64,000 bases of DNA, taken from contig CAZUIU010000004.1 in assembly GCA_964620455.1 (NCBI GenBank), positions 111,562-175,561 on the forward strand. The letters run 5' to 3'. Positions 18,827 to 34,034 of the stretch are shown here, piece by piece. The notes below the pieces were generated by a model. That model searched no databases. It saw nothing but the letters and a program-made list of their open reading frames with translations, and had not been told where the DNA came from. Position 1 is the stretch's first letter; each line of letters starts with the position of its first letter. The translations under genes were made by a program, and so were the position numbers. This DNA comes from an uncultured Candidatus Methanogranum sp. (GTDB taxonomy: Archaea; Thermoplasmatota; Thermoplasmata; Methanomassiliicoccales; Methanomethylophilaceae).

Positions 18827-21772
18827 TTATGTATAATCTGCCAGACGTTCCATTATCGATTTCTTGATAAACGGCTCGAAGACCACACTGCGACCCTGGG
18901 AAACATAATCTATGATGCACACCGCCCGCTTACCAGTCACTTCCATTGCAGCATTGGCATAGACACTGAGCTGCATCCTGTACTCGTCCTCGAAACGGTC
19001 GGAAACGTCGGTCTTATAGTCATGTATCTCCACATGGTCAGGGAACTCCACATACAGATCTATTACGCCTCTGAGCGTTATTCCCAGATCATTGAACGAT
19101 AATGAACATTCTATCTCCGGTTCCATGTAGACTGAATCGGACAGGGAATCCAGGATCTCCTTTATACGGACGGTCTCAGGCATCTCATCCTGTTCCACTC
19201 CCGGAGGCAGACCTCTCGCCATGAGTTCGGCCACATGGTGGACCTTCGTTCCGTACTCCATACCCTTACCGCACACCTGGTCCGAACCTTCAGGAGGAAC
19301 CTCCTCACCTTCGAAATGCAGTATGTCGTGCACACCTATGTTCCTCCTACGTCTGCTAAATTCCGCTATCTCCGGACGATCAGACAGTTCGGAAACCCCC
19401 GTACCGCACATGGATGAGACCGCCCCCTTCCCGCATACGGAGTGTTCAGAGAACGGTTCCAAACCCTTGAAGAACTCGGAAGGCTTATCCGCGGAAGTAA
19501 ATGTCAGATACTGTTTGGCCCGGGATATGACGACAAAGAGTAGCCTCCTCTCCTCACTATAGTCCCGCGGAACCGCTGCGGACACCAACCGGGACTTCCA
19601 CGATTTCATTATGCATTCGTCATCACCTACGGTGACGATCTCACTCTTGGACCTTATTCCCGTCATATCGCTGAACACGTATTCAGACCTGTCACCGTTA
19701 GTGTCCGGAAAAGATTTGGTGTTGAAACCCGCGGCTATTACAACCGGATACTCCAGACCTTTGGATTTATGCATGGTCTGTATGACGACGGCCTTGGTAT
19801 CAAGTGAGGAATCCATGTTATAGGTGGTCTCCTCCTCTATATCCTTCTCAATCATGCGCACCATGTCTGAGATCGTCAACAGTGAGCCTCTGTGAGCGGA
19901 TGACATGATAGAGATTATGGCCTGAGTTATATCGTTGTTAAGACCATAGTATTCGAAAACCGAGGTGATGAGACTGGTCACCCTCCTCTTCTTGCGTATG
20001 AGTTCCTTTCTAAACCCAACTATGTCCTCGGGAAGACCGGTATCCGAACCGCGGTCCATCATCTCCCTCATCTCACACAAGGGATACCCCTGATCGGCCA
20101 GTATGGTGCATATGCCCCATGGATCATCCTCGTTATTGGTGTATTTCAGCCATGCCAAAAGGAGCTTCCCTTCCCTGGACCCCATAACCTCCACATCTCC
20201 CTGGAGGAAAACCGGCATACCGGCATCCCTCACTGCCTCGTAGACCTCACGGGCCATAGATCTCTTCCTGCACAGTACCGCTATATCGGAATATGTTACC
20301 TTACGGAAACTCCCCTCCCCCTCACATATGACATACCTGTCATCTATGATGTAGTGCTGTATACGTCTGACGATCTCCCTGACCTCTTCATCCTGAGATG
20401 ACGCCGAAACAGATTCTATAGCCGTATATCCATCCAGATACTCTTTGGCCGCCTTGATGACCTGTATATTGTCCAGGTGCACCTCCTCCTTGTCTGTTGC
20501 CTTTATATCAAGGGCCTTGTAGGCGAGGTCGATTATCCTCTGGGAACTCCTGTAATTGACATCCAGAGACAGGGATATACACTCTGGTAAACTGAAAGGG
20601 ATACGCACCTTGTCATCATTCAGGAACCTACAGAGCTCCCTTCCGCGGTCCTGGAACCTAGTTATGTTCTCCACCGATACATACCTGAATCCGTATATGC
20701 CTTGTTTCCAATCACCAACGACACACATGTTGGGTTCCTCGAGCAGCATGAGCGATATCATGAACTGGTTGCTGTTCGTATCCTGGAACTCATCGACCAT
20801 CAGATATCTGCAACGCATCCTCTCTCTGGTACGGTCATCCGCATAGAGAACGACGAAAGCGAACAACGCAACGAGTCCGAATGTCAGACGATCGTCGATT
20901 ATTGAGCGCCTTATGAATTCGTAATAGATATCGTGCATGAAATCCAACAGCCCGCCCCTATCGTCACAGGCCGCCATGCGCAGTATATCCTCCGGAAACG
21001 CGTTGATCTCTTTGAGGGACACCCCAGGTATCTCCGAGACGCCGTTGCCACCGCTACGGAAACTCCTCAGCAAATCGCACATGCGGTTACTGCCCTCTTC
21101 TAGGGCGTTCATACGTACAAGTTCCCCGAACACCGACCCTGAGTCCCCGGTCAGAACCCTGCCATCATCCCCTCCGAACCAACCCTTCCTCAGCGGCATT
21201 ATACCCCTGGCCATCAGACTGTTGATAAGACTGTACAGATCCTGTATATTTTGACTCGCAATGGTCGCCACCGCCCCGTAGTCGTCTCCATGATCGGCAA
21301 GGAAACGGTCCGCCATGTCCGAGAAATAGACCCTGTTCAGTGTCTCGTTCTCCACAGTCCTTGAACCGCGGGTCATCCTCTCATCTATGCCGAAGAAACG
21401 GCTGACCGTCTCCGGAGACTCCATGAGAACAGAGAAACAGAACGAATCGAAAGTACTGACGCGCACATCCTTGCACATCCTTGAACATCCCTCTAGGATC
21501 ATCCTGGACTTTATCCTCTCCTCCATCTCCTGAGCGGCATTACGAGTAAATGTCATCAGAACTATGTCCTTGGGCTGTACATCCTCAGATATCATGTTTA
21601 TGTAGCGTTCCACGATAGTCTTCGTCTTCCCTGTGCCCGGACCAGCATCCACCACCACCATACCATTCAATGTCTTGGCTATACTGTCCTGGGATTCGTT
21701 CAGATCACTCTTCGCCACTGGAATCACCCGACCCTTCTGTCTTGGACATGTACATGGTGCATGCTTTGACAT
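18827..21772 (-). CDS. AddA/RecB-like UvrD-family helicase with a C-terminal PD-(D/E)XK nuclease
   Basis: SF1 motifs are 'DAGPGTGKTKT', 'TFTRNAAQEM', 'MVDEFQDTN', 'VGDWKQGIYGFR', 'NYRSSQRI', 'TMHKSKGLEYPVV' and 'RRLLFVVISRAKQYL'. The nuclease region is 'GVIDLYVEF..EIHDYKTD..QLSVYANA'. The start is uncertain: ATG 21772 overlaps the upstream gene by 68 nt, and there are in-frame GTGs at 21727 and 21718. Confidence 0.7.
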   Translation of the reverse strand: MSKHAPCTCPRQKGRVIPVAKSDLNESQDSIAKTLNGMVVVDAGPGTGKTKTIVERYINMISEDVQPKDIVLMTFTRNAAQEMEERIKSRMILEGCSRMCKDVRVSTFDSFCFSVLMESPETVSRFFGIDERMTRGSRTVENETLNRVYFSDMADRFLADHGDDYGAVATIASQNIQDLYSLINSLMARGIMPLRKGWFGGDDGRVLTGDSGSVFGELVRMNALEEGSNRMCDLLRSFRSGGNGVSEIPGVSLKEINAFPEDILRMAACDDRGGLLDFMHDIYYEFIRRSIIDDRLTFGLVALFAFVVLYADDRTRERMRCRYLMVDEFQDTNSNQFMISLMLLEEPNMCVVGDWKQGIYGFRYVSVENITRFQDRGRELCRFLNDDKVRIPFSLPECISLSLDVNYRSSQRIIDLAYKALDIKATDKEEVHLDNIQVIKAAKEYLDGYTAIESVSASSQDEEVREIVRRIQHYIIDDRYVICEGEGSFRKVTYSDIAVLCRKRSMAREVYEAVRDAGMPVFLQGDVEVMGSREGKLLLAWLKYTNNEDDPWGICTILADQGYPLCEMREMMDRGSDTGLPEDIVGFRKELIRKKRRVTSLITSVFEYYGLNNDITQAIISIMSSAHRGSLLTISDMVRMIEKDIEEETTYNMDSSLDTKAVVIQTMHKSKGLEYPVVIAAGFNTKSFPDTNGDRSEYVFSDMTGIRSKSEIVTVGDDECIMKSWKSRLVSAAVPRDYSEERRLLFVVISRAKQYLTFTSADKPSEFFKGLEPFSEHSVCGKGAVSSMCGTGVSELSDRPEIAEFSRRRRNIGVHDILHFEGEEVPPEGSDQVCGKGMEYGTKVHHVAELMARGLPPGVEQDEMPETVRIKEILDSLSDSVYMEPEIECSLSFNDLGITLRGVIDLYVEFPDHVEIHDYKTDVSDRFEDEYRMQLSVYANAAMEVTGKRAVCIIDYVSQGRSVVFEPFIKKSIMERLADYT

Positions 21773-24362
21773 AATTGCATTTGGAACATCCCTTCAGAGG
21801 ATTAGCATCGAACATGGAGACTGTCATGTCTGAAACAGTGTCATGATCATTACGCAGACGGCACAAGAAATCATCCATGGTGTCCCTGGGAATTACCAAT
21901 ATACCATTGCAGAACATATGACCCGATATCATCTTGGCTATCTTGTCTATCGCCTTCTTGGCATTACCCATGTTAGTCTTGTTGACGTTCATACCGATCG
22001 CGGCTAGCACGGATTCCCTCAGCCCTTCGTCGTTCGAACACTCCCCTATTCTATCCCATCCGAATGCAGACAGTACATCGATGAAAGCACCCCATGAATC
22101 GCAGAACTTAGAATAGGTCTTCCCGAAATCCGACTTCAAACAGCAATCCTCATTGCGGATGTATCCTTCGAAATCGGAATCCACGAACTCTATGGCTCTC
22201 ACATTGCGCATCACATCGTAGCTGTCATCGGTGAGGGATTCCATCGGATTGTCCGCCACGTACAGCTGGTTGAACCTGCACGGAAGCCTTCCGAGAGATT
22301 GGTGAAGCAGGGCGAGATATATTATCGGCTGGAACTCCGGATGGTCCACCGCTGCGATCATCCCGTCCCTTATCTCGGAGATCTTCTTGGAACCGCCTGT
22401 TTTGTAGTCGGTGATCAGTGCACCTGTGACCAGATCGAACTCCCCGAACATAGGATCCTTGGATGACCTGAAATCCGTCTCTGTTATACTACTATATAGG
22501 TCGTATCCTTCCGAGGACATCAACATGTTAGGATACTTGCGCTTGGAATTCGAACGATCCAGTCTGACATTATTGGGTGCCATACGATCCAGATAACGCA
22601 TCACATTGAGCATACTGGCACGCATCCTGGTCCTGTCGACCCCTTCCATCTGACTGCATGATATCCCAGAAAACCTGCTCTGCATGCTATCTATGTAGTG
22701 ATCCAACCCTTTCGACCTCACGGTATCGGGATAACACAGGTAGAATTCCGCGAACTCGTGAACCATGCTGCCAAACACCGTGTACTCCGAATCAGGTGTC
22801 CTCATGAGATCTCCGAACATATAGGCACGAGGACACTGACGGAAAAGATCGTATGTGCTTTTTGAGAACTTCCAATCCGTAACGGGTACACGGTCTACGA
22901 ATTCGTCCCCCTTCTTCGAGAAAATTCTGCACTCTTCTGAATACCAAGGACCGCATACCAACTCGTCACATATGTCCCCAAACCCCTCTATGACCCTGTC
23001 ATCATATATCGATTCAAACAACTCACAAGGCCTAGCCTGCTTACCACCTCTCATAAGGTTCACGGCATACACCCGCGATTCACCCTGTTGCAACAACACG
23101 GAGAACCTCTTGACATCCTTCTCCGCCTCCTCCTCGCGATCTATGTACTCCTTACCTATCACACTGGTGGACCATTCTGGCCCGATTCCCACGAACACGA
23201 TGAACGGCCTGTCAACATACACTGAGTTTTTGCAATCTACCAACAACACCCCTCTCTTCTCATCATCAGGTATCTGCTCGTTATGGTGAAGGTCTGCCAC
23301 GTTGTTGACCGCATACATCATCTGACTCACAAGTTTTGATGTGATCTTCTGATCGGTCACCATCAGATCGTCAAGAAGTATCCTAACCTGCGGCCTCTGC
23401 ATAGGATGCACAACCTCTGTCATGACCTCCCCGAACGTCATGGAACGAAGATCGCGCATAACCTCGGCCAACCTAACAGCCCTCTCGTTACGGAGATTGT
23501 CGATATTCTTGGATAGGAGATACTCATCCTGTTTTGACCTCACATACCCCCCGTAATTAGAGAATAGCTCTCTGACATGCCTCATCCTAAGCGTATCATA
23601 TCCCAATCCCAGTGAAAGGAACTGCAAGAAATCCCTTATCTGTGAAAGATCCCTGACCGACATCTTGTTCTTGAACGGTAGGCCCCTTCTGTAAAGTGCA
23701 GATCTGACCGCATCCGCTACCGCTCCCTCGGTATCCAGGACTATTGCGGAATCCTCTGACATTTCCGGAGTTATCAGACTGACGATGTTCTCGGCAATCT
23801 GCCTATCATTGCCTACCTGACGTATGACCTCGATATCATAATCGTCATCCGCGAAAAGATCTACATCCTTGAACTCAGAAGGTACGAAGTGTTTATCGAG
23901 GTCGTCGAAGAGATCCAACCCAATCACTGCGACATTTCCCCTGCCGCGATAAAGCTCGCTCTTAGACGGATCGTATGATGCCATGACCTTCTCGATAGTC
24001 GGTAATGCGGCAAAAGATCTGTATACCTCCTTGGAAGACGGAGAATAAAGATAATTCTCCGGATTGGCCCTGTATCTGCGTATGGTACGTATGTTCTCCA
24101 ACTCACCATGCACGTACTTGAAATCGAAACCCGTCTCCTCTACTATTGAGGATATGGTCCTAAGATCGCCCATTACACCCCTGCCGAGAACCCTGACAGC
24201 TTCCTTGCCGGCAATCTGTCTGGGAGTGTATGCGAAACTCCCTATCGTGGCCTTGCGAACCCTGGAATTCAAAGCAGTGGCCAAGGGTGCATCGTTGGTG
24301 ATAACAAGGTCACAATCCATGACCTCTGTGTAAAGTTCATCGATGCTCTTGGATCTGCGCAT
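21705..24362 (-). CDS. AddB-like subunit: helicase-dead scaffold with a C-terminal RecB/Cas4-type iron-staple nuclease
   Basis: It is 885 aa from ATG 24362; the track ORF extends to 24632. I found no Walker A by eye. Nuclease motifs are 'GSMVHEF', 'GEFDLV', 'ITDYKTG' and 'QPIIYLALL'. They are bracketed by 'FRQCPRAY' and the terminal 'CSKCNYVKAC', giving the C...CX2CX5C pattern. Confidence 0.55.
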   Translation of the reverse strand: MRRSKSIDELYTEVMDCDLVITNDAPLATALNSRVRKATIGSFAYTPRQIAGKEAVRVLGRGVMGDLRTISSIVEETGFDFKYVHGELENIRTIRRYRANPENYLYSPSSKEVYRSFAALPTIEKVMASYDPSKSELYRGRGNVAVIGLDLFDDLDKHFVPSEFKDVDLFADDDYDIEVIRQVGNDRQIAENIVSLITPEMSEDSAIVLDTEGAVADAVRSALYRRGLPFKNKMSVRDLSQIRDFLQFLSLGLGYDTLRMRHVRELFSNYGGYVRSKQDEYLLSKNIDNLRNERAVRLAEVMRDLRSMTFGEVMTEVVHPMQRPQVRILLDDLMVTDQKITSKLVSQMMYAVNNVADLHHNEQIPDDEKRGVLLVDCKNSVYVDRPFIVFVGIGPEWSTSVIGKEYIDREEEAEKDVKRFSVLLQQGESRVYAVNLMRGGKQARPCELFESIYDDRVIEGFGDICDELVCGPWYSEECRIFSKKGDEFVDRVPVTDWKFSKSTYDLFRQCPRAYMFGDLMRTPDSEYTVFGSMVHEFAEFYLCYPDTVRSKGLDHYIDSMQSRFSGISCSQMEGVDRTRMRASMLNVMRYLDRMAPNNVRLDRSNSKRKYPNMLMSSEGYDLYSSITETDFRSSKDPMFGEFDLVTGALITDYKTGGSKKISEIRDGMIAAVDHPEFQPIIYLALLHQSLGRLPCRFNQLYVADNPMESLTDDSYDVMRNVRAIEFVDSDFEGYIRNEDCCLKSDFGKTYSKFCDSWGAFIDVLSAFGWDRIGECSNDEGLRESVLAAIGMNVNKTNMGNAKKAIDKIAKMISGHMFCNGILVIPRDTMDDFLCRLRNDHDTVSDMTVSMFDANPLKGCSKCNYVKACTMYMSKTEGSGDSSGEE

Positions 24363-24505
24363 GCCACGAATGATGCGTTGTCGATATAAAAACTGGAGTG
24401 ATTCCGATGCAAGATAGATCAGGATTACACGAACCGCACCTGTACTGTCATCAGAACATAGAATGTAAGGTGAATAACGATTTGAACAAATGATACAAAA
24501 CGTTG

Positions 24506-24516
24506 TATTATATATT
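24506..24516 (+). promoter_or_regulatory. TATA-like box for the 24539 gene (leaderless-type spacing)
   Basis: 'tattatatatt' is centred about 28 nt upstream of ATG 24539. It lies in the divergent spacer between the AddB-like gene and the 24539 gene. Confidence 0.35.
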
Positions 24517-24538
24517 GGATATATGTTCCATCCATAAT

Positions 24539-25249
24539 ATGAGTATGTGGAGAGATGATGATCATACGGTCGGTTATCTAGCCGAAAAAGAACCGTCCCA
24601 AAACACTTGGAACGACGTACAGGCAATATCATCTGAACCCCACGTCAACACACTTGAAGATCGTGAGGAGAAAATCAACCAGATCAAGAACGAAATCATG
24701 AGAGATGTGGTGGAGCACCTGTCATCTGTGAAAGGAATCTCCTCCGTATTCCCCCTGAATCCCGATCTCTTATCGATGATACAGGCTGAGGAGAGCAACA
24801 TCAGATGCTCCGGCGGTATAACCTATGAGAACATGGCCCTCATGGAATGCCTCAGGAAAAATTCCGCTTTGTGCATGTTCTGCGACGGTTTCCTGGAGGA
24901 ACAGAGAGAAATATCCATGATATTGGTAGATGATTACGGAAACATAACCGGTAACGATGTCCCCAAATGCAAAGAAGAGGAGTACCGGAGCAGAAAGGAC
25001 GTGATCTGGCTTTCCGATAATTTCATAATATACTCCAAAGCCGAACAGAAATCCGAATCCAAAATGACGATACTACCCAGAAGATTCAGAACACTCGATC
25101 AGATACCGGGAGCAAAGAATGCAATGTACTTCTACCCGACAATAGGGACGGATATCATGCTCAAAAAGACATTGATGAAAGATTACGACCCTACAATGTG
25201 CTCCATAATAGTGGGTTTCGATACGGAACCTCTGTATGGGAAATATTAA
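24539..25249 (+). CDS. hypothetical protein (no recognisable family)
   Basis: The track ORF starts at TTG 24503. I prefer ATG 24539 because of the TATA spacing. The protein has several Cys ('CSGG', 'CMFCDG') but I can name no motif. It is followed 24 nt later by the degenerate exonuclease-like gene. Confidence 0.4.
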   Translation: MSMWRDDDHTVGYLAEKEPSQNTWNDVQAISSEPHVNTLEDREEKINQIKNEIMRDVVEHLSSVKGISSVFPLNPDLLSMIQAEESNIRCSGGITYENMALMECLRKNSALCMFCDGFLEEQREISMILVDDYGNITGNDVPKCKEEEYRSRKDVIWLSDNFIIYSKAEQKSESKMTILPRRFRTLDQIPGAKNAMYFYPTIGTDIMLKKTLMKDYDPTMCSIIVGFDTEPLYGKY

Positions 25250-26820: not shown

Positions 26821-28086
26821 ATGGATGAGACGATAACTGTCACACAATTGAACACCCGTGTGAAATCCCTGATGACCGATGCCCCGGGAATAACCAACGT
26901 CTGGGTAACTGGGGAGATCTCCAACTTCAAGGTTTATTCGTCCGGACATTGCTACTTCACACTCAAAGACAGAGGCAGTGAGATACGTTGCGTCATGTTC
27001 AGATCCGCCAAGGCCCGTATAGATTTCGAACCCAAGGACAGCATGGAGATCGCGATGTACGGAAATGTCGACCTTTACGTGGAGAGAGGCGCATACCAGT
27101 TCATAGTGCAAACCATGAGGCGCGGAGGCATGGGTAACCTTTACGCAGAATTCGAAAGACTTAAGAATAAACTCGCTGCAGAGGGACTTTTCGAACAGAG
27201 CAGGAAGAGAAGGATACCTGCTTATCCAAAGGTGGTCGGAGTGGTTACATCCTCGACAGGCGCTGTTATCCACGACATAGTGACGACCGCCAAGAGAAGA
27301 TTTCCGGCAGACATCCTTCTTGCACCAGCACAAGTACAAGGAGAAGGTGCATCCGCCTCCATATCCAATGGCATAGCCGTCCTGAACGATATGGGAGTAG
27401 ATGTCATAATCGTGGGCAGAGGTGGAGGGTCGATAGAGGACCTGTGGGCCTTCAACGAGGAGATCACAGTCAGGGCTATAGCCTCATCCAGGGTTCCTAT
27501 AATATCCGCTGTGGGACACGAATCAGACTTCACATTGGCCGATTTCACCGCCGACGCCCGTGCCGCGACACCGACCGCCGCCGCAGAGATGGCATTCGGG
27601 GACATGGGGGACATCATAAACCAACTGAACAACTATTCCATAAGATCCAACAGGGCATTGGGGTTCACGATAGAGAGAATGAGGAGCAGGTTCAACTCTG
27701 TTGATGCGAAACTTTCACCTGTCCGCGCAGAAGAAATGGTGGCAATGAGAGAGATGCGCTTGGATAACCTATCAACCAGATTGGTATCCGCTTTGAAGGG
27801 GACCATCGAGATCATGAGGAAAAGATACATTACTGCCGAGATGAAACTTGAAAGGGCCCCGGAAGGCATGTTATCCCCACTGAAAACCAAGATAGATGGA
27901 TTCTCAGGTCGGTTGGATGCGCTGAATCCGTACAGGGTCCTTGGAAGAGGATACAGCATGATTACCGATGGCAAAGGAAATACCATCATATCGACAAAGG
28001 AATTAAGAGAAGGTATGGATATCGCCATTCGTATGCGCGATGGTCGTGCAGATGCCAGAATAGAGAAGGTGGATATGGATGACTGA
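26821..28086 (+). CDS. xseA: exodeoxyribonuclease VII large subunit
   Basis: The N-terminal OB-fold region is 'TVTQLNTRVKSLM...VWVTGEISNFKVYSSGHCYFTLKD'. Further conserved blocks are 'VVGVVTSSTGAVIHDI' and 'GRGGGSIEDLWAFNEE', followed by a coiled-coil tail. The start is ATG 26821; the track ORF begins at 26800. Confidence 0.85.
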   Translation: MDETITVTQLNTRVKSLMTDAPGITNVWVTGEISNFKVYSSGHCYFTLKDRGSEIRCVMFRSAKARIDFEPKDSMEIAMYGNVDLYVERGAYQFIVQTMRRGGMGNLYAEFERLKNKLAAEGLFEQSRKRRIPAYPKVVGVVTSSTGAVIHDIVTTAKRRFPADILLAPAQVQGEGASASISNGIAVLNDMGVDVIIVGRGGGSIEDLWAFNEEITVRAIASSRVPIISAVGHESDFTLADFTADARAATPTAAAEMAFGDMGDIINQLNNYSIRSNRALGFTIERMRSRFNSVDAKLSPVRAEEMVAMREMRLDNLSTRLVSALKGTIEIMRKRYITAEMKLERAPEGMLSPLKTKIDGFSGRLDALNPYRVLGRGYSMITDGKGNTIISTKELREGMDIAIRMRDGRADARIEKVDMDD

Positions 28087-28312
28087 TGACAAGGAACCAG
28101 GCTTCGAAGAGAGCATGAAAGCCCTTGAGGAGATGGTCAAGAAACTCGAGAACGGCGGACTGGACCTCGACGAGAGTCTCAAGGTATACGAAGAGGCCAT
28201 CGTACTCAGGGATCGTTGCAAGAAGATACTCGAAGAGAGCGATCGCAAAGTACAGGTTATAATGAACAGTGCCAACGGAACTTCTGTCAAAAATCTGGAA
28301 CTGGATGACTGA
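28079..28312 (+). CDS. xseB: exodeoxyribonuclease VII small subunit
   Basis: It is 77 aa with 'FEESMKALEEMVKKLENGGLDLDESLKVYEEAIVLRDRCKKILEE'. It overlaps xseA by 8 nt. Confidence 0.8.
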   Translation: MTDDKEPGFEESMKALEEMVKKLENGGLDLDESLKVYEEAIVLRDRCKKILEESDRKVQVIMNSANGTSVKNLELDD

Positions 28313-29156
28313 CCCAGAGCGGATTGCCTGAGCTGGCACTCCATTCATATGTGCACGAATAGAGATTGGTCTCCGAGAAATAACCGAAGGAAAATGCCAA
28401 CCTTAGAGACCCACTAACCTGACCCTCCTTCAGACCGCGTCCGTTGTATGATCCGAATATCTCAGATATGCCCATCGTGAGAACCGCCACGGCATCGTGT
28501 CCCCTCACCACCAACCAAGGATCCTTAAGGGATTTCAACTCGGCCCCCAGTTTTTGAAGGGCGTCCTTCTTACCGATCATGGGTGCTCTCGATATCGAGA
28601 ATACATCCTCTATCATCCTTCTGGGATTCAGTTTCAGGGTCCTCCTATCGATGAACGATCTGTAATCCAGATTCTTGAATGAGAGCCCTAGGTCATCACG
28701 TTCCGATATGTACATCAACATACCGATGGGGGCCACAGCCTTAGCGATCACGTCCCTGACATTCCCATTAACCTCTTCGAAACTTTTCAAAGCATCCATG
28801 TCCGCATACTCATACAGCACATCCTCCAATGCATGGGAGCACATGACCATCGTTTCCTGGTCGCGCCTATCTGTATCGAATACCGGAAACCTGCATTCGC
28901 GTCTCCCTATGCGATCCAGATCGGGATCCACGATACCGATGACTTTGGTATCGTTCCTTCTCCCCCTGAGCTCGTTTACCGAACGCTTCACATTATCCTT
29001 AGAGAATGCGACCACGACTTTGGCATCATCTACTGTGAATTTACTGTAAAGTCTACTGTCGGTCACACCTTCAACAACGACGAAAGTACCCTTGAACGAG
29101 GACCTCATCATAGATATCTCGTTCGCGACGTCCGAAGCACTCAGGTTCTCGATCAT
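28287..29156 (-). CDS. DUF4435/OLD-type Toprim nuclease-like protein (AriB-like)
   Basis: The Toprim Glu lies in 'FVVVEGVTDSRLY' and the DxD lies in 'IGIVDPDLD'. The 289-aa size fits. It has an ATGA overlap with the upstream ATPase gene, and its 3' end overlaps convergent xseB by 26 nt. Confidence 0.55.
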   Translation of the reverse strand: MIENLSASDVANEISMMRSSFKGTFVVVEGVTDSRLYSKFTVDDAKVVVAFSKDNVKRSVNELRGRRNDTKVIGIVDPDLDRIGRRECRFPVFDTDRRDQETMVMCSHALEDVLYEYADMDALKSFEEVNGNVRDVIAKAVAPIGMLMYISERDDLGLSFKNLDYRSFIDRRTLKLNPRRMIEDVFSISRAPMIGKKDALQKLGAELKSLKDPWLVVRGHDAVAVLTMGISEIFGSYNGRGLKEGQVSGSLRLAFSFGYFSETNLYSCTYEWSASSGNPLWVSHPVPDF

Positions 29157-30190
29157 CTCTCAACTTTCAACTCCACTGCAAGATCCCAGTCATCGTGTAT
29201 GATCTGTGGCGAATGCGTTGCCACTATCAGATGAAGCTTCCTCAACCTGGCCACATCAGCGAAGAACCTCCCCATCTGCTGCTGCCAGGTTATATGAAGA
29301 GACATCTCTGGCTCGTCGATTATAACCAACGAACCTATATCTGTCTGGAACAGGAGACGATAGAATATGACCAGAATGTGCTTTTCACCTGATGACAGCT
29401 TATCTATGGATAGCGATGACCCGTTATCCAGCTTCACTATCATGGTTCCGCTCTCGTTTATGAAAACAGTCTTGTTTATGAACACATTATTCACAACATC
29501 CATGAACACTATTATGGATTCCGCCAAACAATAATGCCTCTTGACATAATCGTCCACCTCGTATGCCAGATCCTTGTATTCTTGACGATACTCCATTATC
29601 TCGAACCTAGACGGAGGGAACCTATATCCTGAAGGCATATCAGGCTCAAACCCGGCCTGCTTTATGAATTCCAACTTGGCCTTGATGTCCTTGCACCAGA
29701 ACTCCAATTCATCATCGGTATAATCTGTCATAATTTCCTTGGGCTGCTCACAGAGCGTGCAATCCGATTTGGCGTTCTTTATACTCTGAGTAAGCTCTTC
29801 AACATATTCTTTCAAAGCCGGAACCATACAATCGTCCTTCATGACCACCATCCTCTCCGGCGGTATGTAGGTCACTTTCAAGATGCTCTTCAGATCGTCT
29901 ACAGACAGCTCCTCTTCAACCTGGTTCCTCTGTATCTGCACCAGCAGATCGCCTCCCCTGTTCTCAACGAATAGGAACGTCTCCCCATCGAAACCAAGAT
30001 CCAACCTTTCAAAAGGAGTGACGGCCACATCTTCCAAATTACCCGTCAGGACGTTGAATACCAGTTTCATGAGCGTCGATTTGCCGAAACCGTTCTGAGA
30101 ATGTATGAACGTCATACCTTTGTCACTCAGTTCGACATCATAGTCGTATTCGTGGAACAATCCGTAAACCTTTATCGACTTCAGCATCAT
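29153..30190 (-). CDS. ABC/SMC-type (AAA_21-like) ATPase (AriA-like)
   Basis: Walker A is 'QNGFGKST'. A helical insertion of about 200 aa follows. The signature is 'LSSGEKHIL', Walker B is 'LVIIDEPEMSLH' and the H-loop is 'VATHSP'. I placed the start at ATG 30190/30187 ('MMLKSIKVYGLF'); the track start 30235 is a TTG. Confidence 0.6.
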   Translation of the reverse strand: MMLKSIKVYGLFHEYDYDVELSDKGMTFIHSQNGFGKSTLMKLVFNVLTGNLEDVAVTPFERLDLGFDGETFLFVENRGGDLLVQIQRNQVEEELSVDDLKSILKVTYIPPERMVVMKDDCMVPALKEYVEELTQSIKNAKSDCTLCEQPKEIMTDYTDDELEFWCKDIKAKLEFIKQAGFEPDMPSGYRFPPSRFEIMEYRQEYKDLAYEVDDYVKRHYCLAESIIVFMDVVNNVFINKTVFINESGTMIVKLDNGSSLSIDKLSSGEKHILVIFYRLLFQTDIGSLVIIDEPEMSLHITWQQQMGRFFADVARLRKLHLIVATHSPQIIHDDWDLAVELKVER

Positions 30191-30272
30191 GGGCGATCTA
30201 TTCGTAATCAACCTGAAGATATACATATCTTTCAACTCAAGATTTATCTCAATAGACAGTATCGCACCTCAC

Positions 30273-31112
30273 ATGGATGTGAACCAAGCCCTGAGGGAGG
30301 TTCAGACGAACATAGGCTCCGGAAACAGAGAAGCCGCATGCACACAGATAGTTCAGATAGTATTGGACAATTCGGAAGACCCAGTCATCCTCCTCACATG
30401 CACCTCACTGTTGAAGACGATCGGTGAACGTGAAAAAACGGACTGGACCGTAGATGTTCTGATGAAGTGCCTGTCTACAGATCAAACTTCCAGATTGGAG
30501 ATCGCCAAGGGATTGAACGGATTGGGACGGTTTGCAGATGCAAAAAAGATACTATCAGAACTGGATGGTAATGATAATGTATATCGGGAAATCATGCGCA
30601 CTTCCTACGGCCTAGGGGATTATTCAGAGGCCGCAACTGCATACAAAAGGATGAACACCCCGAATACAGATGACAGGACGATGATGGTGGATACACTTTG
30701 CTCACTGAGGGACTTCAAGGCAGCAGATGATAAGAGTTCCGAAATGCTCTTGAGGACACCGGATGATTACAGCATCCAGAGATGCCGTTGCTCCATGCTG
30801 CTTAGAGCCGGCCGCAACAAGGAAGCGGAAGGTTTTGTCAGAGAAATATTGAAAAAGGACAAGAAATCCGCTGATGCAAATGCATTGGCTGCTTATTTCA
30901 TGTGGATGAACGGAAAGATATCCGCGGCAGGCGGTTATGCAACCAAAGCCGTGAAAACCGATCCTAAACACATAGGCGCTATGGAGACCCTTGCCCTATG
31001 TCTAATCGAAAAAGGGAAAATGAACGAGGCAAGGATAGTGGCCGGGGCCATCAACGAGCAATCACCCGGACATCAGTCGGTGACACGCATACTCGAAATG
31101 TGCTCACAGTGA
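30273..31112 (+). CDS. TPR-repeat protein
   Basis: It has repeated helical hairpins of about 34 aa with A/Y/L spacing, e.g. 'YGLGDYSEAATAYKRM' and 'KISAAGGYATKAVKTDPKH'. The start is ATG 30273; the track ORF begins at 30189 inside the divergent spacer. Confidence 0.55.
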   Translation: MDVNQALREVQTNIGSGNREAACTQIVQIVLDNSEDPVILLTCTSLLKTIGEREKTDWTVDVLMKCLSTDQTSRLEIAKGLNGLGRFADAKKILSELDGNDNVYREIMRTSYGLGDYSEAATAYKRMNTPNTDDRTMMVDTLCSLRDFKAADDKSSEMLLRTPDDYSIQRCRCSMLLRAGRNKEAEGFVREILKKDKKSADANALAAYFMWMNGKISAAGGYATKAVKTDPKHIGAMETLALCLIEKGKMNEARIVAGAINEQSPGHQSVTRILEMCSQ

Positions 31113-31113
31113 A

Positions 31114-32685
31114 TCATCTCTTCCTGGAGTACAAGGTATCCTTCATCCTCTTGTTCCTGTTATGTTTGGAAACGTAATTCGTGTTCAGTATAACGTCCTC
31201 CCAGAACGTCCTTGTGAACAATATGAGGACCATGAACACCTCCAAACGTCCTATCCACATAAGCGCACACAGTATCATTTTAGAGAAAACCGAGAGGTCG
31301 TTTATCGATCCATTCGGTCCGAAATCTCCTAACCCTGCACCTATGTTACTCATGCATGAGACACAAAGCCCCATACTATCCAGAAGGTCTATATCAGGTT
31401 CGACAGCGAGCAACAGCACGATACCTACCACTGCCATAACCAGGAACGATATTGCTATGACCAGGGCCGACATGAGCGCATCGCTGTTCACTATACGGCC
31501 GTCGAACTTGACCTCCTTTATGGCATTGGGATGCAGCATCTTGTAGAATCCGTTTGAGACATAGGATCTTATTATCAGCATCCTATAGATCTTGATACCG
31601 CCTGCGGTCGAACCGGACATAGCACCGAACAACCCCAGGAAAAGGAAAATGAACGATGCGGCAACCGGCCATATAGAATAATCGTAAATTGTAAAACCTG
31701 TGGCCGTACCTATGGAGACGACCGTGAATATGGAATCCCAAAGCGTACTGAGAGCGCCCGCCGATTCGTCCACTCCCGCCACCAAAACAAGCCCGGCGAT
31801 CACCAATGATGCTATGAGGAACCACATGAAGGTCCAAACAAATTCCTGACTCCTTATGTAAGCCTTGTACTCATGTTTGTAGAGAGTACGGTAATGCAGG
31901 TAGAAATTCGTACCTCCAAGAAACATGAACACCACCACTATGAACTGCACAAGGACGGAATAAGAAGCCATACTGTCATTCCTGACAGACATTCCACCCG
32001 TCGATAGACAGGACATGGTTATACATGATGAATCCAAAAGACCTACACCGGACAGTACCAGGAGCACAGTCTCCAATATGGTGAAAAGCAGGTAGATGTA
32101 GATGAAGCTCATAGCCACACCCTTCATCTTGACAGAGTAGTTCTGCACTTCTGTACCCGACAGTTCGTTGTTCAGGAACGCCCTGCCTCCGATACCCATC
32201 ATCGGAAGGAGGAACATGAACACCAAAACCACCGCTATACCTCCGCACCACTGGGAGAAAGACCTCCAGAAAAGCATGCTCTTCGGTAAGGACTCAACAT
32301 CCGTTATTGTCGTGAATCCGGTAGTCGTGAATCCGCTCACAGACTCGAATATCGAATTATACCACTCAAGACCATAAAGATAGTATGGTATAGCTATCAC
32401 GAAGAATGTTATGAACCAAGCCAATGCCATCACAAGGATTCCTATGGAGGGAGACATCCTCTCACCCATGGAGAACAGAAGATATTGCACAAGACCCATC
32501 ACAGCCAATATCGGGACCGGTGCCAGGAAATACCATGTAGTCTCCCCATATATCAATGCTATAATAGTAGGCGCCAGTAGTATGAGAGCAAGGACCATCT
32601 CCACTGCCCCCATTATCCTGATGGTACTGTTGTTCCACCTCGCCATATGGCGTACGCCCAGCCTTATAGAATCGAACATCCTCAC
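31114..32685 (-). CDS. trkH: Trk-type K+ uptake membrane subunit
   Basis: It is a polytopic membrane protein with the repeated pore-loop 'TTGF'/'TGG'/'GTATGF' pattern typical of TrkH/KtrB. A GTG start overlaps the trkA stop (alternative ATG at 32679). Confidence 0.85.
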   Translation of the reverse strand: MRMFDSIRLGVRHMARWNNSTIRIMGAVEMVLALILLAPTIIALIYGETTWYFLAPVPILAVMGLVQYLLFSMGERMSPSIGILVMALAWFITFFVIAIPYYLYGLEWYNSIFESVSGFTTTGFTTITDVESLPKSMLFWRSFSQWCGGIAVVLVFMFLLPMMGIGGRAFLNNELSGTEVQNYSVKMKGVAMSFIYIYLLFTILETVLLVLSGVGLLDSSCITMSCLSTGGMSVRNDSMASYSVLVQFIVVVFMFLGGTNFYLHYRTLYKHEYKAYIRSQEFVWTFMWFLIASLVIAGLVLVAGVDESAGALSTLWDSIFTVVSIGTATGFTIYDYSIWPVAASFIFLFLGLFGAMSGSTAGGIKIYRMLIIRSYVSNGFYKMLHPNAIKEVKFDGRIVNSDALMSALVIAISFLVMAVVGIVLLLAVEPDIDLLDSMGLCVSCMSNIGAGLGDFGPNGSINDLSVFSKMILCALMWIGRLEVFMVLILFTRTFWEDVILNTNYVSKHNRNKRMKDTLYSRKR

Positions 32686-34034
32686 AACTCCACTGGCGTG
32701 TCATGCCCTATGAACTTGGCCAGTTTCACAGGGTTAGCATTATGCGAGAAAACCATCACCCTGTCATCCTTGCGGAACACTGTATTAAACCTAGGATAGA
32801 TTATGTCGTCCCCGCGCATTATGGCCACCAGACGTATACCATTAGGTACCCTTACATCACCATAGCATTGATCGACTATGACAGAATTCTCTCCTATGGT
32901 CATATCGAAGAGGTACTCATCTTCATGGTCGAGTACCAAGATCGCCTCCTCATCATACACGAGATTCTTCGTGACTTCGTTCGATATGACCCGATGATAT
33001 CCGATTATGGACTCTATACCAGTGTACTTGAATATCTCCTCATACTCCTCCGTGGAATACTTGGTTATAATCTTCTTGATTCCGAACCTCAGCGCAGCCA
33101 TACATGTCAACAGATTGCGCTCATCGCTTGGAGAAACACTTACAATCACATCCGCCCTATCGATGTTCTCAGCCTTCATTATGACCGGATCCGCGATGTC
33201 CGCATTTACCACGATGACCTCGCTCAACGCCCTTGCAGCATTCCTGCAGTTGAACTCGTCACGATCAATTATCTTTATGAATCTCCTCTTACCGGATTGG
33301 GATAGGGCCCGGGCTATCGATATACCCGAGGTGGTAGCACCGATTATGACGTACTCCTTTGCCTCCTTACGTATGCCCATAAGCTTGTTGAATGACTCAG
33401 CTGCCTCAGCGGTACCCAGTACACATATCCTATCGTCCACGTGAATCTGGGCACTTTCTGTATCCACAATTATGTTGTCACCACGATATATGGATACGAC
33501 AGAACAGTTGTCTGGCATGTCTATATCCATGACGACCTCGCCCACCAGATCGCTTTCGTTGGTGACTCTGAAGGTCACCAATGCGACCCCCCTGCGGTCG
33601 ATGTAATCGTACTGGACCACATTCTCCAGAGATGCGATCTTGCTTATCTTATCAGCCATGATCTGTTCAGGGGAGATGAACATGTCTATACCTTCAACTC
33701 CCTCAGAAGCAGTCTTTATCTCGTAATCGGGATCCCTGAGACAAGCTACCGTCTTGATGCTCGGTTTATAACGCTTGACTATCATCCCGATGAACAGGTT
33801 GAGTCCATCATCCGGAAGTGCAGAGAACACAATATCCGCATCCATCCGCTCTATCGCGGACTTCAGCACCTTGGGATTGCTCCCATCCTCATGAAGCACC
33901 GATACATTGAGCAGACTCTTGATGTTATCGGCTTTGACGGAATCTTTCTCCACAACCAGAACATCATGAACCTTGCAGAGGGCCTCAGCGGAAGTGTAAC
34001 CTACATTTCCGCCTCCTATGATGATCACCTTCAT
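32682..34034 (-). CDS. trkA: Trk system NAD-binding subunit (two RCK/KTN domains)
   Basis: The Rossmann motif 'MKVIIIGGGNVGYTSA' is followed by a second one, 'YVIIGATTSGISIARAL'. Confidence 0.85.
   Translation of the reverse strand: MKVIIIGGGNVGYTSAEALCKVHDVLVVEKDSVKADNIKSLLNVSVLHEDGSNPKVLKSAIERMDADIVFSALPDDGLNLFIGMIVKRYKPSIKTVACLRDPDYEIKTASEGVEGIDMFISPEQIMADKISKIASLENVVQYDYIDRRGVALVTFRVTNESDLVGEVVMDIDMPDNCSVVSIYRGDNIIVDTESAQIHVDDRICVLGTAEAAESFNKLMGIRKEAKEYVIIGATTSGISIARALSQSGKRRFIKIIDRDEFNCRNAARALSEVIVVNADIADPVIMKAENIDRADVIVSVSPSDERNLLTCMAALRFGIKKIITKYSTEEYEEIFKYTGIESIIGYHRVISNEVTKNLVYDEEAILVLDHEDEYLFDMTIGENSVIVDQCYGDVRVPNGIRLVAIMRGDDIIYPRFNTVFRKDDRVMVFSHNANPVKLAKFIGHDTPVEL

What the first reader, a model, noticed from the sequence alone, without database searches (positions are those of the whole stretch)
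28287..30190. PARIS-like (AriA/AriB-type) ABC-ATPase + DUF4435/Toprim two-gene module in an archaeon
Seen: two minus-strand genes overlap by ATGA. The upstream one, about 345 aa, has Walker A 'QNGFGKST', a helical insertion of about 200 aa, the signature 'LSSGEK', Walker B 'LVIIDEPEMSLH' and the H-loop 'ATHSP'. The downstream one, 289 aa, has the Toprim Glu in 'VVVEGVTDSRLY' and DxD in 'IVDPDLD'. My hand count of 29401-29600 gives about 40% GC, against about 47% for a 100-nt purA stretch (37201-37300). The module is wedged between housekeeping xseAB and a TPR/trk block, and its 3' end overlaps xseB convergently by 26 nt. Established: an ABC ATPase followed by a DUF4435 Toprim nuclease is the architecture of PARIS (AriA/AriB). 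PARIS is a bacterial abortive-infection system triggered by phage anti-restriction proteins, and its released nuclease cuts host tRNA. AbiL-like and split-OLD systems are related. To my knowledge such systems have been characterised only in bacteria. Inference: this is a horizontally acquired anti-virus module operating in a methanogen, with a shorter ATPase than I would expect for AriA, so it is possibly a distinct subtype with a different trigger or target.
Basis: partly seen in the sequence, partly recalled or inferred. Interest (0 to 1): 0.75.

Follow-up and report, generated by a model that had tools for sequence, protein, structure and literature searches.

The report
Fixed, sensor-trimmed PARIS-like pair in methanogens
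The two genes really are relatives of the bacterial PARIS anti-phage system, but they are not a recently imported defence island: they form an old core operon, inherited vertically in the same place by a whole lineage of gut and sludge methanogens, and the ATPase has lost the segment thought to recognise viral triggers.

Summary
Two minus-strand genes overlap by ATGA: a 344/345-aa ABC ATPase (29153-30187) and a 289-aa DUF4435/Toprim protein (28287-29156). All quoted motifs are present. HMMs, PDB sequence search and Foldseek on high-confidence AlphaFold models all give AriA and AriB as the best or only significant matches.

The pair has native composition (GC 0.472 against 0.484 for the window). 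It sits in the same slot, trkA-trkH-TPR | ATPase-DUF4435 | xseB-xseA, in all 80 species-level Methanomassiliicoccales genomes retrieved and in 5 of 5 loci chosen through the TPR neighbour. It co-diverges with housekeeping neighbours (Mantel r about 0.89) and has the same dN/dS (about 0.09).

The nearest relatives outside the clade are patchy: Methanosarcina, Clostridium beside a Shedu-type (SduA_C) gene, and a P4-like viral contig. Their ATPases are 440-463 aa. The fixed clade lacks about 100 aa that correspond by position to E. coli AriA IS1 and its pore loops.

Best reading: an anciently captured PARIS-type module, now a core gene pair. It is probably still an ATP-gated nuclease complex. Its role may have shifted from trigger-specific defence to a conserved host function, as with Cran1 in Sulfolobales. 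This is a new variant of a known kind.

The parts
29153..30187 (-). ABC ATPase gene, an AriA homologue of 344 aa (345 aa from the ATG at 30190). Walker A is N32-G-x-G-K-S37, the signature is S265-S-G-E268, Walker B is D291-E-P-E294 and the H-loop is T324-H-S-P327. Residues 124-235 form a helical bundle with an invariant F-P-P-x-R at 190-194. It lacks the roughly 100-aa block found in 440-464-aa AriA proteins.
28287..29156 (-). DUF4435/Toprim nuclease gene, an AriB homologue of 289 aa. Residues E29, D33, D77, D79, D81, D96, D99, E101 and R218-G-H-D221 are invariant. The first helix (residues 7-17) is nearly invariant.
29153..29156 (-). ATGA overlap of the ATPase stop with the DUF4435 start, which implies translational coupling. 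The same abutting arrangement is seen in related loci.
30188..30272 (.). AT-rich divergent intergenic region of about 85 nt, shared with the TPR gene. The true TPR start is probably ATG 30273. This is the presumed bidirectional promoter (inferred).
28287..28312 (.). 26-nt tail-to-tail overlap of the DUF4435 and xseB 3' ends.
26821..28312 (+). Context only: xseA (26821-28086) and xseB (28079-28312), the syntenic anchor on the 3' side. Not part of the operon.
30273..34034 (.). Context only: TPR gene (+, 30273-31112), trkH (-, 31114-32679) and trkA (-, 32682-34034), the syntenic anchor on the 5' side.

Best explanation
The two genes are a PARIS-type (class 4 OLD family) operon encoding an ABC ATPase and a DUF4435/Toprim nuclease. 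The operon was captured before the Methanomethylophilaceae-type Methanomassiliicoccales diversified. Since then it has been inherited vertically at one chromosomal position as a core gene pair under strong purifying selection.

Shown:
- Both proteins are homologous to AriA and AriB in sequence and fold.
- The ATPase and Toprim catalytic residues are invariant.
- The position is fixed, the genes co-diverge with housekeeping neighbours, and dN/dS is low.
- The clade lacks about 100 aa of the ATPase that its full-length relatives carry.

Inferred by homology:
- The ATPase forms an ATP-sandwich dimer that docks the nuclease through the nuclease's conserved first helix and Toprim face, and holds it inactive.
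- A ligand sensed by the conserved helical bundle, together with ATP turnover, releases or activates the nuclease.
- The nuclease then cuts nucleic acid by two-metal Toprim chemistry using E29, D33, D77, D79 and E101. RNA or tRNA is the more likely substrate, by analogy with AriB.

Inferred from evolution:
- The hypervariable trigger-recognition segment (IS1 plus pore loops) is gone, the remaining sensor region is as conserved as the catalytic lobes, and every sampled member of the lineage keeps the pair. The module therefore most likely responds to a conserved signal, either host-derived or common to the lineage's viruses, rather than to fast-evolving viral proteins.
- It may have been co-opted for a host function, as the OLD-family ATPase Cran1 was in Sulfolobales.
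For: Homology:
- PADLOC gives AriA at 9.1e-27 and AriB at 1.7e-14. The same models hit a P4-like viral PARIS pair with similar scores.
- Pfam gives AAA_15/AAA_21 and DUF4435 above their cut-offs.
- By PDB sequence search the ATPase's best hit is AriA 8ux9/8v45 at 1.6e-14.
- The AlphaFold models have pLDDT 93 and 91. Foldseek finds only the AriB chains 8ux9_A and 8v46_D significant for the nuclease (5.5e-6 and 1.2e-5, full length), and AriA fills the top 15 matches for the ATPase (2e-18).
- Direct BLASTP to the viral-contig pair gives 27% identity over 269 aa (3e-20) and 35% over 230 aa (9e-28).

Catalytic conservation.

Fixation and vertical descent:
- All homologues above 230 bits come from Methanomassiliicoccales.
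- 80 of 80 species-level loci share the order trkA-trkH-TPR-ATPase-DUF4435-xseB-xseA.
- 5 of 5 loci chosen through the TPR gene also carry the pair. A deep-branching member does too.
- Mantel r is 0.89 and 0.88 against the mean xseA/trkA/trkH distances, with 0 of 999 permutations reaching the observed value.
- Median dN/dS is 0.10 and 0.084, against 0.07-0.12 for the neighbours.
- GC and GC3 are native.

Derived trimming:
- Relatives outside the clade have ATPases of 440-463 aa in unrelated, partly mobile or defence contexts.
- The alignment shows one block of about 100 aa missing in the clade. By position this equals E. coli AriA residues of about 90-190, which hold the central-pore loop 113-124, IS1 122-180 and the radial-pore loop 161-174 (PMC11464382).
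- The helical bundle is as conserved as the ATPase lobes: 0.59 against 0.585 and 0.68.

Complex formation:
- The genes overlap by ATGA.
- The first helix of the nuclease is nearly invariant. In E. coli that helix docks on AriA (PMC10802264).
- The ATPase and nuclease distance matrices correlate at r=0.87.

Precedent: Cran1, an OLD-family ATPase conserved and vertically inherited across Sulfolobales, acts in the cell cycle and not in defence (PMC12796447).
Against: - No experiment or expression data exist for this pair.
- Every biochemical step is inferred from E. coli PARIS, which shares only 12-19% identity in structural alignment. By sequence, the clade profile does not find E. coli AriB at all.
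- Equating the missing block with IS1 rests on position only, not on a residue-level structural superposition.
- In one cryo-EM study Ocr binds the coiled-coil interface rather than IS1 (PMC10802264). A trigger-binding surface may therefore survive.
- Lineage-wide conservation does not exclude defence. A guard-type sensor of a conserved perturbation could also be conserved.
- I could not measure how many genomes in the lineage lack the pair, nor whether Methanomassiliicoccus sensu stricto has it. The genome scan is pattern-based and gives a lower bound.
- The whole 15-kb block is syntenic, so a fixed position alone is weak evidence about function.
Confidence: 0.5

Rival explanations
1. The pair is still a working PARIS-type abortive-infection system, acquired long ago and kept by the whole lineage as constitutive innate immunity. 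The ATPase senses a viral protein or a virus-induced perturbation and releases the Toprim nuclease. The nuclease cuts tRNA and arrests the infected cell.
For: The best and only strong matches are AriA and AriB. The catalytic constellation is the same as in a mobile viral-contig PARIS. Relatives outside the clade sit in defence or mobile contexts, including a Clostridium copy next to SduA_C/Shedu and a P4-like contig. Both proteins match phage protein families. In E. coli, Ocr was seen bound at the coiled-coil interface, a region retained here (PMC10802264).
Against: The position is fixed in at least 80 species. The pair has housekeeping-like dN/dS and co-diverges with its neighbours. That is atypical for defence systems, which the literature describes as horizontally spread (PMC12796447). 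No integrase, tRNA gene or compositional boundary is present. The segment predicted to recognise triggers is lost. No hypervariable region remains apart from one 16-residue loop.
Confidence: 0.33
2. One reading: a recently horizontally acquired, compositionally foreign defence island inserted between xseAB and the TPR/trk block of this particular methanogen.
For: There is a local 200-nt GC dip to 0.40. Relatives occur in bacteria and on a viral contig.
Against: Module GC is 0.472 against 0.484 for the window, at the 27th percentile, and GC3 is typical. The insertion site is identical in 80 of 80 related species, in 5 of 5 TPR-anchored loci and in a deep branch. Divergence tracks the neighbours.
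Confidence: 0.03
3. A DNA-repair accessory. The ATPase-Toprim pair would act on DNA together with the neighbouring bacterial-type repair enzymes, exonuclease VII (xseAB) and the AddAB-like helicase-nuclease, in the manner of Rad50/Mre11 or RecF/RecR.
For: xseB abuts and overlaps the nuclease gene, and an AddAB-like pair lies 4-9 kb away. All are conserved in synteny. The ATPase fold also matches Rad50 at 1e-12. OLD-family Toprim domains can cut DNA.
Against: xseAB is convergent and not co-transcribed, and the whole block is syntenic, so adjacency says little. Relatives outside the clade have no xse or add neighbours. AriA matches are about six orders of magnitude better than Rad50. AriB-type Toprim domains were judged closer to RNase M5 than to OLD DNase (PMC10802264).
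Confidence: 0.1
4. A decaying relic with no function.
For: None beyond the shortened ATPase. One relative's ATPase ORF has also lost its usual stop codon.
Against: The reading frames are intact in all loci. Catalytic residues are invariant and dN/dS is about 0.09.
Confidence: 0.01

Closest known systems
PARIS (AriA/AriB; class 4 OLD family), E. coli B185 system, PDB 8UX9 and 8V45-8V49
   Same: A two-gene operon with the ABC ATPase upstream of a DUF4435/Toprim nuclease. AriA and AriB are the best HMM, PDB and fold matches. The nuclease has the same E..D / DxD / E acidic constellation and the ATPase has the shared 'DEPExSLHxxWQ' stretch. The first helix of the nuclease is conserved, and in E. 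coli that helix is the AriA docking element.
   Different: Structure-based identity is only 12-19%, and the nuclease is not detectable by sequence against E. coli AriB. The ATPase is about 120 aa shorter and lacks the block that by position holds IS1 and the pore loops. The AriA D401/E404 salt-bridge residues are T/Q here. The pair is chromosomal, fixed, vertically inherited and evolves like housekeeping genes, rather than being carried by satellites or prophages with a patchy distribution. The host is an archaeon.
Sister PARIS-like pairs found here: IMG/VR contig L087 (P4-like), Methanosarcina barkeri 3 (L088), Clostridium botulinum (L089), GCA_030604065.1 (L091)
   Same: They belong to the same DUF4435 subfamily (190-290 bits to the clade profile, full length) and hit the same best PADLOC models. 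The gene order and the tight coupling of the two genes are the same.
   Different: Their ATPases are 440-463 aa. Their genomic contexts are unrelated and partly mobile or defence-linked (Shedu neighbour, transposase fragment, P4 alpha-like primase). They are spread patchily across bacteria and archaea.
Cran1 (Sulfolobales OLD-family ATPase; EMBO Rep 2025, PMC12796447)
   Same: It is an OLD-family ATPase/nuclease in archaea that is conserved and vertically inherited across a whole taxon and has a conserved gene neighbourhood. It was shown not to act in defence but in cell-cycle progression. This is the evolutionary pattern seen here.
   Different: Cran1 is a single fused protein from a different OLD clade (U11) in Crenarchaeota. 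The present module is split and AriA/AriB-like, and sequence relatedness to Cran1 was not tested. That paper reported classes 3 and 4 as restricted to bacteria, which the Methanosarcina and Methanomassiliicoccales pairs found here contradict.
Rad50/SMC-type ABC ATPases and retron/Septu PtuA
   Same: The ABC ATPase head is shared, with a helical insertion between the two lobes.
   Different: Fold matches are weaker (1e-12 to 3e-13, against 2e-18 for AriA). The partner is a DUF4435 Toprim protein, not Mre11 or an HNH nuclease.

Membership tests
PARIS (AriA/AriB, class 4 OLD) | Two adjacent, co-oriented genes with the ATPase upstream of the nuclease | tested here: met
   ATGA overlap at 29153-29156. 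The same arrangement is seen in 79 of 80 related loci; the exception is a contig end.
PARIS (AriA/AriB, class 4 OLD) | AriA: ABC ATPase of the AAA_15/AAA_21 type with Walker A, signature, Walker B and H-loop motifs | tested here: met
   Pfam AAA_15 at 3.9e-15 and AAA_21 at 1.3e-14. PADLOC AriA at 9.1e-27. PDB AriA at 1.6e-14. The top 15 Foldseek matches are AriA. The motifs are invariant.
PARIS (AriA/AriB, class 4 OLD) | AriB: DUF4435 protein with an N-terminal Toprim domain carrying the metal-binding acidic residues, plus a C-terminal helical domain | tested here: met
   Pfam DUF4435 at 33 bits against a cut-off of 27. PADLOC AriB at 1.7e-14. The only significant Foldseek matches are AriB chains, aligned over the full length. 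E29, D33, D77, D79 and E101 are invariant.
PARIS (AriA/AriB, class 4 OLD) | AriA insertion sequence 1 and the pore loops (E. coli residues of about 113-180), predicted to recognise the viral trigger | tested here: not met
   A block of about 100 aa that is present in 440-463-aa relatives is absent from the whole clade. The equivalence to IS1 is inferred from position through shared anchors (PMC11464382). It was not verified by residue-level superposition.
PARIS (AriA/AriB, class 4 OLD) | Coiled-coil/IS2 aromatic interface that gives an AriA hexamer carrying three AriB subunits | not testable with these tools
   The monomer model shows a helical bundle at residues 124-235. No multimer prediction was available.
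PARIS (AriA/AriB, class 4 OLD) | Activation by phage anti-restriction proteins (for example Ocr), giving abortive infection | not testable with these tools
   This needs virus or trigger challenge assays.
PARIS (AriA/AriB, class 4 OLD) | The released AriB dimer cleaves host tRNA-Lys | not testable with these tools
   This needs biochemistry. Only the catalytic residues could be checked.
PARIS (AriA/AriB, class 4 OLD) | Typical rather than defining: patchy distribution linked to mobile elements or defence islands | tested here: not met
   Fixed position in 80 of 80 loci and 5 of 5 TPR-anchored loci, co-divergence at r=0.89, native GC, and no tRNA or integrase nearby.
OLD family classes 1-3 (P2 Old, Gabija GajA, retron-associated) | ATPase and Toprim domains fused in one polypeptide | tested here: not met
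   There are two separate ORFs. The PADLOC ATPase-Toprim and AriAB fused models score lower than AriA.
Cran1-type archaeal housekeeping OLD ATPases | Conservation across a whole taxon, vertical inheritance and a conserved neighbourhood | tested here: met
   This is a shared evolutionary pattern only. Sequence membership in clade U11 was not tested and is unlikely, because this module is split and AriA/AriB-like.
Rad50/Mre11 or RecF/RecR repair ATPase plus partner | The closest fold and partner should be Rad50/RecF with Mre11/RecR | tested here: not met
   Rad50 matches reach 1e-12 against 2e-18 for AriA. The partner's only significant fold match is AriB.
RNase M5 (small Toprim RNase) | Significant similarity to RNase M5. 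JGI gives this label to some relatives. | tested here: not met
   Small Toprim proteins 2fcj and 2i5r match only at E 0.17-0.7 over 82 columns. No NCBIfam hit was found.

The most novel reading that the evidence does not exclude
A PARIS/class 4 OLD module has been domesticated. After it lost its trigger-recognition insertion it became a core, possibly essential, ATP-gated Toprim (ribo)nuclease of the Methanomethylophilaceae-type methanogens. It would then serve a host process such as RNA/tRNA turnover, stress-induced growth arrest or cell-cycle control, rather than virus-specific defence. This would be a second, independent case, after Cran1, of an OLD-family immune module co-opted by an archaeal lineage, and the first for the split AriA/AriB type.
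Probability: 0.4. Interest if true: 0.8.

Novelty: new variant of a known kind. Interest (0 to 1): 0.6.

Why it matters
The literature describes defence systems as spreading horizontally. A PARIS-type pair frozen in one chromosomal slot across a whole family of host-associated methanogens runs against that picture. It evolves like a housekeeping operon and lacks the presumed trigger-sensing segment. It therefore offers a natural experiment on how immune modules become fixed or are co-opted.

It also corrects two views. Class 4 OLD/PARIS-like pairs are not restricted to bacteria, because Methanosarcina and the Methanomassiliicoccales carry them. And a hit from a defence-finder tool does not by itself mean a mobile, recently acquired defence island.

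In practice, automated defence catalogues will count this pair as 'PARIS' in every such genome, which inflates the apparent defence load of gut methanogens. If the pair is essential, it would be a lineage-specific target in the Methanomassiliicoccales relevant to gut and rumen methane.

Tried and rejected
1. Compositional evidence for HGT. Rejected.
2. Sequence search of the nuclease against the PDB, both as a single sequence and as a 20-sequence profile. It found no AriB, only chance hits to VSIG4 and spike constructs. The bona fide viral-contig AriB also fails this search. The failure therefore reflects divergence between PARIS clades rather than non-homology, and fold search resolved the question.
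3. NCBIfam. It gave no hit for the nuclease and only sub-threshold hits for the ATPase. Uninformative.
4. tRNA and Rfam scans of the window for integration-site or RNA components. Nothing was found.
5. Neighbour-joining tree of the clade plus 150 representatives. The clade is monophyletic, but deeper branches are too short to name a donor lineage. The origin (bacterial or archaeal) is left open.
6. The TPR neighbour as a third component. Rejected. It is absent from loci outside the clade, and the TPR|ATPase junction tolerates 1-3 kb insertions in several relatives.
7. An apparently truncated nuclease in L094. This is a gene-calling effect of a lost ATPase stop codon, and the nuclease frame is intact.
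8. Literature searches for PARIS or DUF4435 in Methanomassiliicoccales. No paper linking them was found.
9. Whether Methanomassiliicoccus sensu stricto lacks the pair.
Full report
**Observation**

The window carries two minus-strand ORFs at the stated place. The first is 29153..30235: 360 aa from TTG, 345 aa from the first ATG at 30190, and 344 aa as gene callers start it. The second is 28287..29156, 289 aa. They overlap by ATGA at 29153-29156. Every quoted motif is in the translations: HSQNGFGKST, KLSSGEK, LVIIDEPEMSLH, ATHSP, VVVEGVTDSRLY and IVDPDLD. The nuclease gene and xseB overlap tail to tail over 28287-28312. The neighbours are xseA/xseB on one side and a TPR gene, trkH and trkA on the other.

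The inference drawn from them fails. The module as a whole is 0.472 GC against 0.484 for the window, at the 27th percentile of same-sized windows. GC3 of the two genes (0.586 and 0.592) is typical of the window's genes. The window has no tRNA gene and no Rfam family.

**What the proteins are**

- Pfam gives AAA_15 (3.9e-15) and AAA_21 (1.3e-14) for the first protein and DUF4435 (33 bits, cut-off 27) for the second.
- In PADLOC the best model for the ATPase is AriA (9.1e-27). The only model hit by the second protein is AriB (1.7e-14).
- Against PDB sequences, the ATPase's best hits are the AriA chains of 8UX9 and 8V45-49 (1.6e-14).
- The nuclease finds nothing in the PDB by sequence, either alone or as a 20-sequence profile.
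- Its AlphaFold model (pLDDT 93) has exactly two significant Foldseek matches. Both are AriB chains aligned over their full length: 8ux9_A at 5.5e-6 and 8v46_D at 1.2e-5, with TM 0.51-0.55 and 12% identity.
- The ATPase model (pLDDT 91) has AriA as its top 15 matches (2e-18). Retron PtuA and Rad50 follow at about 1e-12.
- One IMG/VR contig (L087) carries a textbook mobile PARIS next to a P4 alpha-like primase and a CI-like repressor. The window proteins align to it at 27% over 269 aa (3e-20) and 35% over 230 aa (9e-28). That pair hits the same PADLOC models with similar scores.
- Both window proteins also match phage protein families.

**Who has it, and where**

All listed homologues of the nuclease (43-62% identity) and of the ATPase (48-68%) come from Methanomassiliicoccales. 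They include Methanogranum, Methanoplasma termitum, Methanomethylophilus, BRNA1 and LGM-RCC1. The source genome is closest to Ca. Methanogranum.

A scan of one genome per species found 95 genomes with a relative, of which the 80 best were kept. tblastn with the window's proteins shows the same gene order in essentially every locus: trkA-trkH-TPR, then ATPase-DUF4435, then xseB-xseA, a thioesterase, two small genes and an AddAB-like pair. The counts are:

| Gene | Loci with the gene (of 80) |
|---|---|
| DUF4435 | 80 |
| ATPase | 79 |
| xseB | 78 |
| xseA | 77 |
| TPR | 68 |

The ATPase gap is a contig end.

Those loci were chosen through the nuclease, so I drew an independent sample through the TPR neighbour. 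All five long contigs examined carry the pair between TPR and xseB. So does a deep-branching member.

**How it evolves**

- Over 47 loci plus the window, pairwise distances of the nuclease and the ATPase correlate with the mean distances of xseA, trkA and trkH at r=0.89 and 0.88. None of 999 permutations reached the observed value. That is as tight as the correlation among the housekeeping genes themselves.
- Mean divergence is 0.51 and 0.52, between xseA (0.44) and trkA/trkH (0.54 and 0.60).
- On 53 close species pairs, median dN/dS is 0.10 for the nuclease and 0.084 for the ATPase. The neighbours give 0.12 (xseA), 0.07 (xseB), 0.12 (trkH) and 0.07 (trkA).
- In the nuclease, E29, D33, D77, D79, D96, D99, E101 and R218-G-H-D221 are conserved in at least 95% of 81 sequences. 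D81 is invariant in the 20-sequence alignment. So are Walker A, the signature motif, Walker B and the H-loop in the ATPase.

That criterion is met.

**What lies just outside the clade**

An exhaustive profile search of 1.84 billion representatives finds 978 full-length relatives at E<=1e-30. About a dozen top hits belong to the clade, followed by a continuum at 190-260 bits.

Named or located examples are patchy in both taxonomy and context:

| Locus | Organism or source | ATPase length | Context |
|---|---|---|---|
| L088 | Methanosarcina barkeri 3 | 461 aa | near a transposase fragment |
| L089 | Clostridium botulinum | 452 aa | beside a Shedu SduA_C gene and an amidase |
| L091 | nearest outgroup (GCA_030604065.1) | 440 aa | unrelated genes |
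| L093 | metagenome contig | 463 aa | not informative |

The short ATPase and the xseB|TPR position are therefore derived features of the fixed clade. PARIS-like pairs do also occur elsewhere in archaea, which contradicts a recent statement that class 4 is restricted to bacteria (PMC12796447).

**The missing segment**

Aligning clade ATPases with the 450-461-aa relatives shows one block of about 100 aa absent from the clade, plus a few small gaps. The viral-contig AriA and E. coli AriA share numbering within a few residues at both conserved anchors. By position, the missing block therefore corresponds to E. coli residues of about 90-190. That stretch holds the central-pore loop (113-124), IS1 (122-180; three helices 'predicted to be involved in trigger recognition') and the radial-pore loop (161-174) (PMC11464382). 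This equivalence is an inference from position, not a superposition.

What remains of the inter-lobe region is a helical bundle at residues 124-235. In the clade it is as conserved as the catalytic lobes: 0.59 against 0.585 and 0.68. It includes an invariant FPPxR tip. In canonical PARIS the pore regions are poorly conserved.

**Mechanism**

Shown: the homology, the intact active sites, the tight gene coupling, and the co-divergence of the two proteins at r=0.87. The nuclease's first helix is nearly invariant (D9, N12, I14, S15, M16). In E. coli that helix docks on the AriA head dimer (PMC10802264).

Inferred: an ATP-sandwich ATPase dimer holds the nuclease inactive. A ligand sensed by the helical bundle, together with ATP turnover, frees or activates it. 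The Toprim site then cuts nucleic acid. RNA is the more likely substrate, because AriB resembles RNase M5 more than OLD DNase (PMC10802264).

The biological role is not settled. Fixation, a housekeeping-like rate, loss of the presumed trigger module and absence of a fast-evolving surface all point to a conserved signal. Together with the Cran1 precedent (PMC12796447) they point to possible co-option for a host function. I put this at about 0.5. Lineage-wide retention of genuine antiviral PARIS activity remains a serious rival at about 0.33, especially because one structure places Ocr on the coiled-coil interface, which is retained here. A dedicated repair role with ExoVII or AddAB is possible but weakly supported (about 0.1). 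Recent HGT (about 0.03) and decay (about 0.01) are essentially excluded.

**Comparison and novelty**

By architecture, HMMs and fold, the pair belongs to the PARIS/class 4 OLD family. It fails one feature tested here (IS1 and the pore loops) and departs from the family's usual mobile, patchy genomic distribution. The functional hallmarks (hexamer, Ocr-type trigger, tRNA-Lys cleavage) could not be tested. I therefore file it as a new variant of a known kind: a fixed, sensor-trimmed archaeal PARIS derivative. No paper linking PARIS or DUF4435 to Methanomassiliicoccales turned up.

Interest is moderate to high. A defence-finder hit in an archaeon is not in itself surprising. A family-wide, vertically inherited, trimmed PARIS is, and it makes the question of immune-module domestication directly testable.

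Noticed in passing
window 18827-24632 (-): An AddAB-like, bacterial-type helicase-nuclease pair: a UvrD+PD-(D/E)XK protein of 981 aa at 18827-21772, and a PDDEXK_1 ORF at 21705-24632 that other assemblies call as 885 aa. It is conserved in synteny with the locus across the lineage. Together with xseAB it forms a cluster of bacterial-type DNA-repair genes in an archaeon.
   Followed up: partly
window 30189-30275: The 307-aa TPR ORF is probably over-called. Homologues are 275-280 aa and cover about 90% of it, so the true start is likely ATG 30273. That leaves an AT-rich divergent intergenic region of about 85 nt shared with the ATPase gene, rather than back-to-back start codons.
   Followed up: partly
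L016, L020/L022, L029, L034, L041, L073, L037/L058, L083/L084/L086 (between TPR and ATPase): The TPR|ATPase junction tolerates insertions in relatives, with inserts of 0.7-3 kb. They encode a conserved zinc-ribbon/TPR-like protein of 450-480 aa (four loci), membrane proteins, or what looks by eye like a DUF4065/SocA-type protein (L016). The TPR gene is therefore not tied to the pair.
   Followed up: partly
L096 6542-10906: In one relative a phage-type integrase and an MmeI-family restriction-modification gene replace trkH next to the TPR gene. A real mobile defence insertion thus sits right beside the fixed PARIS-like pair.
   Followed up: no
L094 3081-4992: The ATPase ORF has lost its usual stop codon and runs about 65 codons into the nuclease gene in another frame. 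The gene caller therefore reports 409 aa and 229 aa. The nuclease frame is intact from its normal start.
   Followed up: yes
L028, L033, L038, L039, L084 (genome contigs records): Records titled Ruminococcus sp. CAG:579, Bacteroides ovatus, Bifidobacteriaceae, Lachnospiraceae and Anaerovoracaceae ('cleanbin' isolates) carry this fully archaeal syntenic locus. These bins are probably mislabelled or contaminated.
   Followed up: no
P0165 (Ca. Methanoplasma termitum), P0253/P0394 (JGI): Public annotations mislead. The M. termitum ATPase orthologue is named 'vitamin B12 import ATP-binding protein BtuD', other orthologues are named 'cytochrome c biogenesis ATPase', and JGI labels some DUF4435 relatives '5S rRNA maturation endonuclease (RNase M5)'.
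   Followed up: no
L088 (Methanosarcina barkeri 3, CP009517 1659070-1675942): A full-length PARIS-like pair (461 aa and 290 aa) occurs in some Methanosarcina strains, near a DDE transposase fragment. This is a patchy archaeal occurrence that contradicts the published statement that class 4 OLD systems are restricted to bacteria.
   Followed up: partly
window 1-64000: No tRNA gene and no Rfam family was detected anywhere in the 64-kb window.
   Followed up: no
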